A DNA stretch of 64,000 nt. Origin: the human T2T-CHM13v2.0 reference genome, Homo sapiens. Both the position numbers and the translations under genes were made by a program. Under the pieces are notes generated by a model. It did not search any database. It saw only the letters and a list, made by a program, of their open reading frames with translations, and was not told the DNA's origin. This document shows, piece by piece, positions 16,701-23,000 of the stretch (position 1 is the first letter of the stretch; the number at the start of each line of letters is the position of its first letter). Location: the NCBI RefSeq assembly GCF_009914755.1, contig NC_060932.1, one strand, 5' to 3'.

Positions 16701-18710
16701 GAACCAAAAAAGAGTCCAAATAGCCAAGGCAATCCTAAGCAAAAAGAACAAAGTTGGAGGGATCATGCTACATGACCTCAAACAATACTACAGGGATACA
16801 GTAATCAAAACAGCATTGTACTGATACAAAACAGTCACATAGACCGATGGAACAGAGTAGAGAACCCAGAAATAAGACTGCACAGCTACAAGTATCTGAT
16901 CTTCAACAAACCTGACAAAAACAAGCAATGGGAAAAGTACTCCCTATTCAATAAATGGTCCTGGGATAACTGGCTAGCCGTATGCAGAAGACTGAAGCTG
17001 GACCACTTCTTTATACTACATACAAAAAATTAACTCAAGATGGAATAAAGACTTAAATGTAAATCCCAAAACTATGAAAACCCTGGTAGACAATCTAGGC
17101 AATACCATCCAAGACATACACATGGGAAAGGATTTCATGATGAAGACTCCAAAAGCATATGCAACAAAAGCAAAAATTGACAAATAGTATCTATTTAAAC
17201 TAGAGGGCTTCTGCATAGCAAAGGAAACTATCAAGAGTAAACAGACAACCTACAGAATGGGAGAAAATATTTGCAATCTGTGCATCTGACAAGACCTAAT
17301 ATCCAGCATCTGTAAAGAACTTAAACAAATTTACAAGAAGAAAAAAACAAATAACCCTATTAAAAAGTAGGCAAAGGTTATGAACAGACACTTCTCAAAA
17401 GAAGACATACATGTGACCAACAATGATATGAAGAAAAGCTCAACATCACTGATCATTAGAGAAATACAAATCAAAACCACAATGAGATACCATCTCACAC
17501 CAGTCAGAATGGTTATTACTAATAAGTCAAAAAATAACACATGCTTGTGAGGCTGTGGAGAAAAAGGAGCACTTTTGCTCTGTTAGTGGGATTGTAAATT
17601 ATTTCAACCATTGTGGAAGACAGTGTGGCGATTTTTCAAAGTCCTAAAGACAGAAATAACAATTATAATAAAATAGAGTGATTTATATTCCTTTGGGTAT
17701 ATATCCAGCAATTCCTTTGGGTATATACCCATACCATTGCTGGTTATATACCCAAAGGAATATAAATCACTCTATTGTAAAGACACATGCACGTGTATGT
17801 TCATTGCGGCACTATTCACAATAGCAAATACTTGGAATCAACCTAAATGCCTATCAGTGATAGAGCAGATAAGAAAATGCGGTACATATACACCATGGAA
17901 TACTATGCAGCCATAAAAAAAGAATGAGATCAGCAGCTGCGGTGGCTGGGCATGGAGTGTGAGTGGCCTGAGTCCCACGGGTGACTGCTCCAGGGCTTCT
18001 CCCCGCCTGCACCAGGCGCTGTTCGAAAGCGCGCCCTCCACTCATGAAGCGCTTGAGCTCTGTGCAGTGGAAAATGCCGTGTGTTTGTGACGGCGGTGAA
18101 AGAGGAGCCTTCTGCCAAAAGGGAACATCAGATCAGCCATAGCTTTGGGCCCAGCTAGATAGAAAGCTCAACAAACAAGTTGAAAAAAGATTTTAAAATC
18201 TTCTACATTCAAATGAAAACCCAAAATAATTTTTTTTGGAATGTTGAGGAGGACTTCAAACCGGCTCTAGAGTGCTGGATACCAGCAAAGGAAATAGAAC
18301 AAATAAATAGGAACCCAGTGCCTAATGAAAATAGATACATTCCTGATTGGGTACCAGTATAGAAAAACAACAAACAGTATTGCTAGCATTCCTCTGTAGT
18401 TAATTATGAATTTGAAATTGCCCTGGTACTAAAACATCATGCTGATGATTCTGGACTTTTGGAAATTACTGCAGTGCCACTATCAGATCTCTTAGAACAA
18501 ACACTGGAGATCACAGGAAAAAATATCAATGGAAACCCATATGCGTTAGGGAGCAAGAAACATCCATTACAACTTCTTATACCACATGGAGCGTTTCAAA
18601 TAAGAAATCTACCTTCGTTGAAGCACAATGATATCATGTCCTGGTTTGAAGGTTGCAGTGGGTAAAATTGAAGGAATAGTATGGCATCGCAGTGATGGCT
18701 GTTAATAAAG

Positions 18711-18839
18711 GTGCTGGACATACACAGTCAACCAAACAAGGTGTCTGCCTTCATGAAGCTCACATTCTGATGGGGAAGGTAGACAATAAACAAATGTGTA
18801 ATATGTCAGGAGAAGAACAGCTATGAAAAAAAAAACAGG
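18711..18839 (-). mobile_element. L2-derived 129-nt segment inside the pseudogene CDS (probable cassette exon of the parent mRNA)
   Basis: 'tctgccttcatgaagctcacattctgatggggaaggtagacaataaacaa' resembles the antisense L2 3' region; sits exactly between the K and V codons of the 'K-VHRHHL' motif. Confidence 0.65.
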
Positions 18840-19819
18840 GTCCATCGTCATCATCTTGGCTTATGCTGGTCAATTCAAGATACTTACATGAATTCAAGAG
18901 CAGTTATTATCAACGTGTACCTGAAAAACTGTGACTCTGCCTTGATGTTAAGTGTTTGTTTAATCATTTTTCAAAAGTACATAATCAGAAATTTGCTAGA
19001 CTCAAAGATATAATATTTGATATATAAAATGCAAATAAAATTATTTTATTATCATTATATTTTAATCTTGAATATTCTACCATGTTTAAGAATATCTCAA
19101 GGTTCCTGTTCATTATGAAACATCAATTTGTCTTCTACCATTTGTGAAGAAATGAATTTTCCAGTTTCAAATATCTATTTAAAATTTTATTAAAAACCAG
19201 CAAATTAATTTTAATCTCTAGCCATAAAAACATAAGTAACAGTAAGCTCCTAAGCTTGTACAAAGGCTGGATTCTCTCCACTATAATTGAGTGGTAATTT
19301 AAAGACAACAATTAAACCAAGAATTTAATGTCACTAATTTTCAAAATTACATAGTTTAAGCTCAATTTGATTTTGCTAGGTATTTAACAAAACATATGGC
19401 TCAACTTCATAACCTATATGTGTGTATGTCTACATCTGTATTTATGTACATCATAGTTAGGATTTGAGAATCTTACCATATGTATAAATAAGTATATATA
19501 AACTCCAATTTTAAATATTAAAATTGCTGAATTTACCCTCATGCTCTTTAAAAAACTTAAAACTTTATGAATGTAGAGAAATTCACCAGAGCTCATTGCC
19601 TATTTGATGGCCATAACTTACTCTAAGTCTTCAGATATATACGTTTATAATAGGTTGAAAATTTCATATAATTTTATTTATTAAGAATTCCAATCTAAGT
19701 ATAAAGGTACAAGGTAGTGAGAAGGAAACACTACAGCTCAGAGAATTTCTTATTTCCAGATCGATTTTAACATATAAAGTTAATAAATATTTAAACGAAA
19801 CAAAGTTTATAGGTGACCT

Positions 19820-20059
19820 TTAGTAAATGGGGAAATGAACAAGACTTTCTTCTTCATCTTCAAACTCTTCAGAAGCAGCAACAGGGCTAGTTAATTCAAC
19901 TCCCAATTGTTCTGGAAGTTTTTTTTTTTTTTTAACCTTCTCTTCTAAGAGAATATTGTTCTTCACTTCTTCCTTGTAATTATACTTCAGATCTTCAATT
20001 TCTTTGAAAAATGAAGGATCAAAATTTTGGAGTTCTTTTTTCAGCTTTTTTATTTCCTC
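19820..20059 (-). pseudogene. CEP290: Copy of the CEP290 terminal coding exon, carried antisense within the RLIG1 retrocopy 3' UTR
   Basis: Minus strand reads EEIKKLKKELQNFDPSFFKEIEDLKYNYKEEVKNNILLEEKV..EQLGVELTSPVAASEEFEDEEESLVHFPIY*, matching the recalled CEP290 C-terminus; preceded by acceptor 'tttctattAG' (20060-20061). Confidence 0.88.
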
Positions 20060-23000
20060 CTAATAGAAACATTATCTTTAAAAGTTGCATATAGGAAATA
20101 TACATATTTTAGGCTTGAACTAAGAGATTTAACTGTAAATATGAAAGCCAACGTATTCCTGAATGGTCAGATACAGCTATAAAGGCAGAAGTATTAAGAT
20201 TTTTGTTTGCTCCATTGTACAGTGTAAATAACTAAGTTGTTAACTGTCAAGTCCAATTATCTATTTTGTAAGTTGTGTTCTAGTCTTTGACTAAAATTTA
20301 TCAACTCTTATAACGGGATTTAATCTTTCTCTAAAAGCACATAAGATCCTCTCAATAGAGCAATCAATCAAGAAGATTTTGTGATTCATAACACTGAAGT
20401 TAGTCTGGTTAAGAGTTTTGGGTTAGACTTAATTTATGTTTTCATTACAAATGTCTAATTTTTAATGAATAATGATCAACTTTTTATAAAGTTATTAATA
20501 TGATCAGGGAAACCTTTGGGACTTCTGCCAATTAGGCATCTGGTAAAGAGAGAATTCAAGCCTTAGTGACTGTTTAGAGTAGTCAGTGATCACTAGCTAA
20601 CGCTTATATCCATGCTTTTTTGTCCTGTTTGCAGTATTCAAGGAGGTAAAACATAGCAAATATATTTTTTAAGTGAACTATAACCTTAAGATTACTGAAA
20701 AGAATTTCAAAGCAAATTAAAGACACTGTTGCCAATGTGACCCAAAACTTAAGAACATACTAATGGCATATATTTGTTATAATTAAAAAATAAATTTACT
20801 ATTTAATCCTAAAAAAAAATGAGATCATGTCCTTTGCAAGGACATGAATGGAGCTGGAGGCCATTATCCTAGGCAAAATAATGCAGGAACAGAAAACCAA
20901 ATACCGGTGTTCTCACTTATAAGTGGGAGCTAAATTATGAGAACACATTGACACACAGCGGGGAACAACACACACTGGGGCCTATCAGAGGGTGGAAGGT
21001 GGGAAGAAGGAGAGGATCAGGAAAAATAACTTATGGGTACTAGGCTTAATACCTGAGTGATGAAATGATCTGTACAAAAAAACCCTGTGCCACAAATTTA
21101 CCTATGTAACAAACCTGCGCACGTACTCCTGAACTTAAAATAAAAGTTAAAAAAAAATCCTAAATTAAGTATTCAAATTATGAAGCTAGAAAATGAATAG
21201 TAAATAAGAAAAGGCAACTGGAAGGAATAAAGTATGAAATACATATAAAGGCAAAGAGATAAATATACTAAAAACCTGAAGATCACCACTTTTTAAATAT
21301 TAAAAGAGATATAAATAATTATAGCTGTCAAAATGATGTTTTAGAATAAAACTGTTTTGTAACATCATGTGCCAATAAGTATGAGAATACAGATTTTCCC
21401 CAGCAAAATATAAACAATTAAATTGATCCCACAAATGAATAAAAACTTGAATAAGAACCACAGAAGAAATCAGAAAGTGGTTAAAAGGTATATTATTTTA
21501 AATACACCGAAGCCATATGATCTTTTACTGAGATATAATAAGGCCTTAAACTATGTATTTCAGCATTTTAAAACAATGTAGACTGTAGAAAAGACAAAAA
21601 TGATTGGTTATGTTATGTTAATTGATATAAAATCTTATTTAGTATAATAAGAAAAGTACATATTAATTTGTTAGATAAAAGGTTGAAATATTAGCAAACT
21701 AAATCCAGTGGTATATTCTAAGTGCTACTTCTCATGCATAGGACTGTGTTTGGCACACATTAAGTGCTCTATAAATATTGGTTGATTAAAAAATAAACCT
21801 TTAGTTTATTGGAATAAGAGCAGTAGCCACATATGATTATTAGGAAACATTATCTGCCAAGTAATTTTTACAATATAGTGTTAGTGTAATCACACATTTA
21901 TGATTATGTCAGTTTATATGTAAACATATAGAAAATTATTGAAGGATACATACCAAGTTATTAAAATCAGGCACAGGAGATATGTTCAAAGAGTATGTAT
22001 TATTTTAGTTCTTAAACATGTAGTAACATAATTTTAAAAAATTATTATCTGGAAAAAAAACTTATGACTAGATAATTGACTCCAGATAGAGAATACAGAG
22101 TTGCAAGAGCAGTGAGCTGAAGAAAGAACCCTAGACATACCAACATTGGTGAGACTAGCCAACTATTATCTGCAACTTATGTGTAATTTTTCTGGTTTTA
22201 AACTCAGTATATAACACACATGTTCTCAAGCTTGAAATTCTGAATTCTTTCACTTTTAAAAATACCTTACCCAATAAATAACCAAATTCTGTCATATTTA
22301 CTTCTTAAATATTCTCATTCATCTTTCCTTTTCATTGCCTCTGCCCTGCCTTAACACACAATTCATACTTTTCAGTACTATTTTACAACCTCTGCAAAGA
22401 TTTCAATTTTGTCTTCCTCCCATGCATTTTCTGAATCATAGTCATAAGTTTCCTTATATTAGGTCTGAAATAGAACTCTTGATATTTTGCCCATGGGCAC
22501 ATTATAGCTCCTGTCTTCCTCAATTCAGTAAGTGGTTCTAACATCCATTCAGTCATAGCCAGAAAACTCCCCTTTCCACAGTCCGCTATAGTTCAAAATA
22601 TATTTGTTTTGAATTTATCCCAACTCTTGTCCTCTCTGTTGTTACTACCTCAGTTCAGTTTTACAGGGCACTGAGTTGCTCCTTCCACTGCACCCACCTT
22701 TATAACTATCTTTTCCTCTTTCCCAACTTCTGCATTATGCCAGATAGCTGTATTAAGGAAATTGCATCAATATGCCGGTTTATACAATTTCAAAGGTATG
22801 GTCTCCAGCTCCAGGTAGACATTCAGTGCTATTCAGAAATTTGTCTACATGTTATGTTCAAAGTTTTTTTCTAATTTACTAAAAAATCATTTATAAAAGT
22901 TTTGCTGACCGTTGCAATGAACATCTACTTGAGGATCAATAGTGGCTTTACTTTCTTCTTCAGAGAGCCATTAGTCAGGAATTTTATTAATTTATTGTTC

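What the first reader, a model, noticed from the sequence alone, without database searches (positions are those of the whole stretch)
19670..20810. Retrocopy 3' UTR contains the CEP290 last exon, its splice acceptor and intron in antisense
Seen: minus strand 19820-20059 encodes the CEP290-like C-terminus through its stop, with an AG acceptor at 20060-20061, ~750 nt of intron-like sequence beyond it, and minus-strand AATAAA hexamers near 19673-19682. Known: RLIG1 and CEP290 are convergent neighbours. Inference: the source mRNA used a distal poly(A) site inside the last CEP290 intron, so a cis-natural antisense overlap covering the CEP290 terminal acceptor already existed when the copy was made. 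If transcribed, the copy would be a trans-antisense RNA to CEP290, and it is a possible paralog hazard for PCR or read mapping of that exon.
Basis: partly seen in the sequence, partly recalled or inferred. Interest (0 to 1): 0.8.

Follow-up and report, generated by a model that had tools for sequence, protein, structure and literature searches.

The report
RLIG1 retrocopy carrying antisense CEP290 exon
This is a dead, roughly 30-40-million-year-old processed copy of an RLIG1 messenger RNA whose long tail ran backwards through the last exon of the neighbouring CEP290 gene, so it is an ordinary pseudogene that happens to record an old overlap between the two genes.

Summary
Window 17933-20810 (+) is one intronless retrocopy of RLIG1 (C12orf29), inserted into the 3' end of an L1 and flanked by a 10-18 nt target-site duplication.

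- **Match to the parent.** Its last 1,972 nt align without a break to the chr12 parent last exon at 93.4% substitution identity. That stretch runs antisense through the CEP290 3' UTR, the last CEP290 coding exon (79 codons still open), its AG acceptor, and 751 nt of the last CEP290 intron.
- **3' end.** The copy ends 16 nt after a conserved AATAAA. The parent has no A-tract at that point, so this is a real distal poly(A) site and not internal priming.
- **Other retrocopies.** The two other human RLIG1 retrocopies (chr5, chr3) end at the proximal site just after the stop codon.
- **Extra exon.** The chr8 copy also holds a 128-nt cassette exon that RefSeq treats as a gap. In the parent this exon has AG/GT flanks and brings a stop after 19 codons.

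No call bears on whether the copy acts as a trans-antisense RNA. The mapping hazard is small: 150-nt reads differ at 5 or more positions. RLIG1P3 is already annotated, and the finding mainly corrects its boundaries. Interest is low.

The parts
17915..17932 (+). 5' copy of the target-site duplication (A-rich start, core AATGAGATCA), part of the host L1 3' end
   Evidence: Both flanks align to an uninterrupted L1 copy on chr3 (L021). The left flank ends at subject position 324 and the right flank starts at 307, an 18-nt overlap. Sequence read.
17933..18710 (+). RLIG1 exons 1-5, spliced together (junctions near 18130, 18237, 18346, 18544); in-frame stops at 18360, 18384 and 18663
   Evidence: Five blastn blocks match C12 88017395-88028856 at 79-95%. 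The parent blocks have AG/GT flanks. Two fragments hit Pfam RLIG1 PF17720 at E 3e-39 and 2e-17. Stops read.
18711..18838 (+). Copy of a 127-128-nt cassette ('poison') exon of RLIG1; RefSeq RLIG1P3 shows this stretch as a gap
   Evidence: 95% identical to C12:88029870-88029997. The parent has ag|GTGCTGG at its start and ACA|gtaaga at its end. Inclusion gives a stop after 19 codons in both parent and copy.
18839..19027 (+). Coding part of the RLIG1 last exon, with the stop codon at 19025-19027
   Evidence: 92.6% identity to the parent. The parent frame reads through to the stop.
19034..19039 (+). Proximal RLIG1 poly(A) signal AATAAA, not used by this copy
   Evidence: The chr5 and chr3 retrocopies end with A-runs 15-25 nt after this hexamer.
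19028..19660 (+). RLIG1 3' UTR between the proximal site and the CEP290 3' end
   Evidence: 93.7% identity, contiguous with the neighbouring segments.
19661..19819 (-). Copy of the CEP290 3' UTR with two overlapping AATAAA at 19673-19682 (the lower boundary is approximate)
   Evidence: 92.4% identity. The hexamers lie in a 75-nt stretch identical to the parent.
19820..20059 (-). Copy of the last CEP290 coding exon: 79 codons plus stop, still open
   Evidence: It differs from the parent by 10 substitutions and a 9-nt expansion of a T-run (95.7% over 231 aligned bases).
20060..20810 (-). Copy of the 3' end of the last CEP290 intron, including the AG acceptor at 20060-20061
   Evidence: 92.7% identity over 744 aligned bases. 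Acceptor read.
20789..20794 (+). Distal RLIG1 poly(A) signal AATAAA, 16 nt before the end of the copy
   Evidence: Identical in the parent. The homology ends after ...TTAATCCT in both.
20811..20827 (+). A-run of 9 (poly(A) remnant and/or start of the duplication) plus the 3' copy of the target-site duplication
   Evidence: The tail and the duplication cannot be told apart.
18613..18766 (-). Annotated exon of the predicted lncRNA LOC105375629, made from the antisense strand of the retrocopy
   Evidence: Coordinates come from the hub gene table. The + strand reads 'ct' at 18767-18768 and 'ac' at 18611-18612, which is AG and GT on the minus strand.

Best explanation
Window 17933-20810 is a non-functional, L1-mediated processed pseudogene of RLIG1 (the annotated RLIG1P3, whose true extent is 1.7 kb longer). 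It was reverse-transcribed from an RLIG1 mRNA isoform with two features. The isoform included a stop-bearing cassette exon between exon 5 and the last exon. It was also cleaved at a distal AATAAA poly(A) site 1.78 kb past the stop codon.

RLIG1 and CEP290 are convergent on chr12. The long 3' UTR therefore runs antisense across the CEP290 3' UTR, the last CEP290 coding exon and its acceptor, and into the last CEP290 intron. The copy carries all of these in reverse orientation.

Shown here: co-linearity with the parent, intron loss, the target-site duplication, the absence of an A-tract at the parent end point, and the CEP290 identity of the exon. Inferred: an age of roughly 30-40 million years, and that the copy has no function of its own.
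For: - **Intron loss.** The copy matches seven parent blocks spread over 14.6 kb of C12, each with splice-site flanks.
- **Continuity.** The last block is continuous over 1,925 aligned bases at 93.4% identity, K2P 0.070.
- **3' end.** The parent has no A-tract after the end point, and AATAAA lies 16 nt upstream in both.
- **Insertion signature.** The flanks abut in an intact L1 copy, with an 18-nt overlap that marks the target-site duplication.
- **Dead coding frame.** The RLIG1 frame has three in-frame stops, and its fragments match Pfam RLIG1.
- **CEP290 identity.** The exon translation matches named CEP290 proteins. The CEP290 Pfam domain is found only on the C12 minus strand, 38 kb further on.
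- **Two copies only.** Only chr12 and chr8 hold this exon in the assembly.
- **Two poly(A) sites.** The 2 of 2 other RLIG1 retrocopies found in the assembly (chr5, chr3) lack the cassette exon and end at the proximal site.
- **Pattern of divergence.** The CEP290 coding segment is less diverged (K2P 0.045) than the intron segment (0.077). That fits a constrained parent and a freely drifting copy.
Against: - The poly(A) tail is at most 9 A and merges with the A-rich duplication, so a tail as such cannot be shown.
- The junction between the cassette and the last exon has one or two more G than the present parent sequence predicts.
- The CEP290-like frame is still open after 10 substitutions and an in-frame 9-nt insertion. 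For 79 AT-rich codons this can be chance, and I did not test it.
- One exon of a predicted lncRNA overlaps the copy, so the region is not necessarily silent.
- No expression data could be consulted.
Confidence: 0.9

Rival explanations
1. The copy is transcribed on the + strand and acts as a trans-acting natural antisense RNA on CEP290 mRNA or pre-mRNA, for example by masking the terminal acceptor or by forming duplexes.
For: Complementarity is high: 95.7% over the exon, with exact runs of 72 and 75 nt. According to the hub gene table, the region lies inside the span of the + strand predicted lncRNA LOC105375630.
Against: - The retrocopy brought no promoter with it, because it starts within exon 1.
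- No annotated + strand exon lies in the window (hub table), so at best this is intronic RNA of a predicted lncRNA.
- The parent RLIG1 mRNA already supplies a perfectly matched antisense in cis, which makes a diverged trans copy redundant.
- Divergence across the copy is at the level of the intron segment, and lower only where the parent is constrained.
Confidence: 0.03
2. The 3' end at 20810 is not a regular poly(A) site. It would be an artefact of internal priming, or of a rare read-through transcript captured by chance.
For: The tail is short, and the A-run could belong entirely to the target-site duplication.
Against: The parent reads ATGTTGAG after the end point, so there is no genomic A-tract to prime on. 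A canonical AATAAA lies 16 nt upstream and is conserved between copy and parent. By recall only, the current RLIG1 gene model ends about 1.1 kb inside CEP290, which would match this site.
Confidence: 0.05
3. The CEP290-derived terminal-exon unit (acceptor, open exon, two AATAAA) lies in sense orientation inside the intron of the minus-strand lncRNA LOC105375629. It could be used as an alternative last exon or premature termination site of that lncRNA.
For: The AG acceptor, the pyrimidine tract and both hexamers are intact in the copy. The same lncRNA has already exonised antisense retrocopy sequence at 18613-18766, with AG/GT flanks (hub table).
Against: The hub table lists no exon at 19670-20059 for any of the 3 models. 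The lncRNA is only a predicted model. No expression data were available.
Confidence: 0.05
4. The segment arose by DNA-level duplication of the chr12 RLIG1/CEP290 boundary, not by retroposition.
For: The 1.97-kb last block is co-linear with genomic DNA and contains intron sequence of CEP290.
Against: The same unit continues upstream into RLIG1 exons with all six introns removed. It ends exactly at a poly(A) signal plus 16 nt and is bracketed by a target-site duplication within an L1.
Confidence: 0.01

Closest known systems
L1-mediated processed pseudogenes (retrocopies), including the annotated RLIG1P3 itself
   Same: Intronless copy of a spliced mRNA on another chromosome. It ends just after a poly(A) signal, has a target-site duplication at an A-rich target, and has a disabled reading frame.
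   Different: The RefSeq model stops at 19089 and shows 18711-18838 as a gap. The real copy runs to 20810 and the 'gap' is a cassette exon. It derives from a long-3'-UTR, stop-bearing isoform, not from the main mRNA.
Convergent (tail-to-tail) cis natural antisense gene pairs
   Same: At the parent locus, the RLIG1 long 3' UTR overlaps the CEP290 last exon on the opposite strand. In PMC1524920 (passages read), thousands of human sense-antisense pairs are listed, and convergent pairs made up 120 of the 129 human-mouse pairs that keep the same overlap pattern.
   Different: Here the overlap is seen only through its retrocopied fossil. I looked at no RNA data for the parent locus.
Pseudogene-derived antisense regulators of parent genes (examples known to me only by recall; none was looked up)
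   Same: A pseudogene carries sequence complementary to a functional mRNA.
   Different: The complementary target here is the parent's neighbour (CEP290), not the parent. Neither transcription nor any effect has been shown.

Membership tests
L1-mediated processed pseudogene | All introns of the parent gene removed at the exact exon junctions | tested here: met
   Seven parent blocks spread over 14.6 kb are adjacent in the copy, and the parent blocks have AG/GT flanks. One junction differs by 1-2 G.
L1-mediated processed pseudogene | 3' end at a genuine cleavage site (poly(A) signal 10-30 nt upstream) followed by a poly(A) tail that is absent from the parent genome | tested here: met
   AATAAA lies at 20789-20794 and the homology ends at 20810. 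The parent continues ATGTTGAG. The tail remnant is at most 9 A and overlaps the duplication.
L1-mediated processed pseudogene | Target-site duplication flanking the insert | tested here: met
   Both flanks map onto one intact L1 copy with an 18-nt overlap. The exact shared core is AATGAGATCA.
L1-mediated processed pseudogene | Loss of coding capacity, no parental promoter | tested here: met
   In-frame stops at 18360, 18384 and 18663. The copy begins inside exon 1. Promoter activity itself cannot be tested here.
Convergent cis-NAT pair (RLIG1/CEP290 at the parent locus) | Genes on opposite strands whose mature transcripts overlap in exons | tested here: met
   Opposite strands are shown. The exon overlap is inferred from the retrocopied mRNA and not from RNA data.
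Trans-acting natural antisense RNA | The copy is transcribed in the antisense orientation and changes the level or processing of the target | not testable with these tools
   No expression or perturbation data were available. Only complementarity is shown (95.7%).

The most novel reading that the evidence does not exclude
The copy is more than a fossil. Its CEP290-derived terminal-exon unit (intact acceptor, open 79-codon exon, two AATAAA) lies in sense orientation within the minus-strand lncRNA LOC105375629, which has already exonised another piece of the retrocopy. That unit could serve as an alternative 3' end for the lncRNA. Alternatively, + strand intronic RNA of LOC105375630 could base-pair with CEP290 transcripts. 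Either way, a primate-specific RNA would be linked to the 3' end of a ciliopathy gene.
Probability: 0.05. Interest if true: 0.45.

Novelty: already known. Interest (0 to 1): 0.2.

Why it matters
The practical value is modest.

- **Annotation.** RLIG1P3 should run from 17933 to 20810, and the 18711-18838 'gap' is a retained cassette exon.
- **Evolutionary record.** The copy gives a dated record (K2P 0.07, roughly 30-40 million years under a recalled neutral rate) of three things in the primate germ line:
  - RLIG1 already used a distal poly(A) site inside the last CEP290 intron.
  - RLIG1 and CEP290 therefore already overlapped by about 1.14 kb.
  - A stop-bearing RLIG1 cassette exon was already spliced in.
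- **Diagnostics.** The chr8 copy is the only other place in the assembly with the last CEP290 exon. Primers placed in the 72-75-nt identical stretches could co-amplify it. Reads of 150 nt or more differ at 5 or more positions and should map uniquely.

Tried and rejected
- **Pfam scan of the 79-aa peptide.** Only a sub-threshold DUF3545 match (E 0.08, 13.4 bits against a cut-off of 25), so Pfam does not cover the CEP290 C-terminus.
- **PDB sequence search with the parent peptide.** Only two chance-level matches (E 0.28 and 0.62).
- **Literature.**
  - 'C12orf29' with 'CEP290': 6 papers. The two I opened as passages only place the genes next to each other.
  - 'RLIG1' with 'CEP290': 1 paper, seen as a listing only.
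  - 'C12orf29' with 'polyadenylation': 7 papers. In the 2 I opened (passages) nothing concerns a distal site.
  - 'CEP290' with 'pseudogene' and 'chromosome 8': 6 papers. In the one I opened the terms are unrelated.
  - 'RLIG1P1', 'RLIG1P2', 'RLIG1P3' or 'C12orf29P': 0 papers.
  - Within these searches, neither the overlap nor the chr8 copy of the CEP290 exon is in print. Supplementary tables were not searched.
- **chr10 match (C10:123859425-123859802, 75-84%) as a possible second retrocopy ending at the distal site.** It is interrupted by Alu elements, and the sequence beyond them is unrelated, so it says nothing either way.
- **Gene conversion as an explanation for the long identical runs.** Considered and not needed. 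By my own rough reckoning, not a call, two runs of 72 nt or more are about what 4-7% divergence gives.
- **DNA-level duplication.** Rejected on intron loss and the target-site duplication.
Full report
**What is there**

The + strand of window 17933-20810 matches seven blocks of chromosome 12 of the same assembly, in order and without the intervening DNA. The parent blocks are C12 88017395-616, 88024700-810, 88025478-592, 88027460-656, 88028686-856, 88029868-997 and 88030111-88032038, at 79-95% identity per block. In the parent each block is bounded by splice-site dinucleotides. Two translated fragments of the copy match Pfam RLIG1 (PF17720) at E 3.4e-39 and 2.1e-17. The RLIG1 frame carries in-frame stops at 18360, 18384 and 18663. 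This is the pseudogene that RefSeq calls RLIG1P3 in the hub table.

**The segment in question**

- The last block is one continuous alignment of window 18839-20810 with C12:88030111-88032037. It has 1,925 aligned bases, 1,797 of them identical (93.4%), and K2P 0.070. There are 47 bases of extra sequence in the copy and 2 in the parent.
- Identity by part, with aligned bases and K2P distance:

| Part | Identity | Aligned bases | K2P |
|---|---|---|---|
| RLIG1 coding part | 92.6% | 189 | 0.078 |
| 3' UTR up to the CEP290 end | 93.7% | 603 | 0.066 |
| CEP290 3' UTR, antisense | 92.4% | 158 | 0.080 |
| Last CEP290 coding exon, antisense | 95.7% | 231 | 0.045 |
| CEP290 intron, antisense | 92.7% | 744 | 0.077 |

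- The minus strand of 19820-20059 is open for 79 codons and ends in a stop.
- Positions 20060-20061 give AG on the minus strand. Positions 19673-19682 give two overlapping AATAAA on the minus strand.

**Is the exon CEP290?**

- The translation of the parent exon (76 aa) found 60 proteins at E <= 0.001 among 1,001 candidates.
- The best hit is the C-terminus of 'Centrosomal protein of 290 kDa' of Plecturocebus cupreus at 100% identity. Bovine Cep290 follows at 92%, and many vertebrate CEP290 records come after it.
- The Pfam domain CEP209_CC5 (PF16574) occurs in the whole assembly only at C12:88069655-88071074 on the minus strand, 38 kb beyond this exon.
- A six-frame search with the peptide matched 2 places among 6 candidates scored: chr12 (100%) and this window (92%, no stop).

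**Real poly(A) site or internal priming?**

- Homology ends after ...TTAATCCT in both sequences. The copy continues with nine A, while the parent continues ATGTTGAG. There is no genomic A-tract to prime on.
- AATAAA lies at 20789-20794, 16 nt before the end, and is identical in the parent.
The first condition (no contiguous alignment) is not met either.

**Retroposition signature**

- The sequence left of 17933 and right of 20810 is the 3' part of an L1.
- Both flanks align to one uninterrupted L1 copy on chr3. The left flank ends at subject position 324 and the right flank starts at 307. This 18-nt overlap marks the target-site duplication.
- The exactly shared core is AATGAGATCA. The A-rich start cannot be separated from a poly(A) remnant.

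**Other RLIG1 retrocopies as an internal comparison**

- The search with window 17900-19100 found two further retrocopies, on chr5 and chr3.
- Both pass straight from exon 5 to the last exon, without the cassette.
- The chr5 copy ends in an A-rich run about 25 nt after the AATAAA that follows the stop codon.
- The chr3 copy ends in a run of 13 A about 15 nt after the same AATAAA, once an inserted Alu is read past.
- Neither matched the 1.78-kb extension.
- So 2 of 3 human RLIG1 retrocopies record the proximal site, and 1 of 3 (this one) records the distal site.

**The 'gap' in RLIG1P3**

- Window 18711-18838 is 95% identical to C12:88029870-88029997, which lies between exon 5 and the last exon.
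- In the parent it is preceded by a pyrimidine tract and AG, and followed by gtaaga if the exon ends at ...ACA.
- Read in the RLIG1 frame it gives 19 codons and then a stop, in both the parent and the copy.
- In the 127-nt parent exon the stop ends 67 nt before the next junction. By the usual 50-55-nt rule (established knowledge) this would make the isoform a target of nonsense-mediated decay.
- The exon has weak matches (78-87%) on five other chromosomes, so it probably derives from an old interspersed repeat. I could not name the family.
[quoted passage not shown] The passages I read do not say which exon.

**Age (inference)**

K2P of 0.070-0.077 between the copy and the unconstrained parent parts, split over two lineages, gives about 30-40 million years. 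This uses a recalled neutral rate of about 1e-9 per site per year. The lower distance in the CEP290 coding exon (0.045) fits a parent held constant, since it is identical in protein to a New World monkey, and a drifting copy.

**Function**

- Nothing points to one. The copy starts within exon 1, so it brought no promoter, and its coding frame is broken.
- No call could address transcription.
- The hub table places the copy in introns of two predicted lncRNAs, one on each strand.
- The minus-strand lncRNA (LOC105375629) has an exon at 18613-18766 flanked by AG and GT on its strand. This is antisense retrocopy sequence that has been exonised.
- In that lncRNA's orientation the CEP290-derived acceptor, exon and poly(A) signals are in sense and intact. 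No listed model uses them.

**Mapping and PCR hazard**

- The longest identical stretches are 75 nt (CEP290 3' UTR) and 72 nt (inside the exon).
- Differences between copy and parent for parent-derived reads overlapping the exon:

| Read length | Minimum differences | Median differences |
|---|---|---|
| 75 nt | 1 | 5 |
| 100 nt | 2 | 7 |
| 150 nt | 5 | 13 |
| 250 nt | 15 | 20 |

- Unique mapping is expected for current read lengths. Careless primer placement could co-amplify the copy.

**What is known**

- RLIG1P3 is annotated.
- By recall only, the current RLIG1 gene model already overlaps the CEP290 3' end by about 1.1 kb. This would equal the overlap inferred here: C12 about 88030900 to 88032037, with the lower bound taken from the CEP290 hexamers at 88030916-88030925. 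I could not see the chr12 annotation.
- My literature searches found no mention of the overlap or of the chr8 copy of the CEP290 exon. Supplements were not searched.

**Verdict**

The object is an ordinary dead retrocopy. What is worth keeping is the corrected boundary of the pseudogene, the retained cassette exon, and the dated record of the RLIG1/CEP290 overlap.

Noticed in passing
window 18711-18838; parent L002:1070-1196 (C12:88029870-88029996): The 128-nt 'gap' in RefSeq RLIG1P3 is a retrocopied RLIG1 cassette exon. In the parent it has AG/GT flanks and gives a stop after 19 codons, so it is a likely poison exon. It has weak matches on five other chromosomes, which suggests a repeat origin.
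   Followed up: yes
window 18613-18766 (-): An exon of the predicted lncRNA LOC105375629 is built from the antisense strand of the retrocopy (RLIG1 exon 5 and the cassette exon). It has AG and GT flanks on the minus strand.
   Followed up: partly
L013:1100-1700 (chr5) and L016:1560-2180 (chr3): Two older RLIG1 retrocopies, each interrupted by Alu insertions. Both lack the cassette exon and end at the proximal poly(A) site just after the stop codon.
   Followed up: yes
L003:1380-1960 (-) = C10:123859425-123859802: A lone 75-84% match to about 290 nt of the CEP290 last-intron segment (window 20548-20762). It is split by one Alu and cut off by another. Its nature (old repeat or truncated retrocopy) is undetermined.
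   Followed up: partly
window 19917-19932: A T-run inside the CEP290-like exon has expanded by 9 nt relative to the parent. This is in frame on the minus strand and adds lysines.
   Followed up: no
window 17700-17932 and 20811-21130: The host is the 3' end of an L1 element, and the retrocopy split it cleanly. I did not determine the L1 subfamily, which would bound the insertion age.
   Followed up: partly
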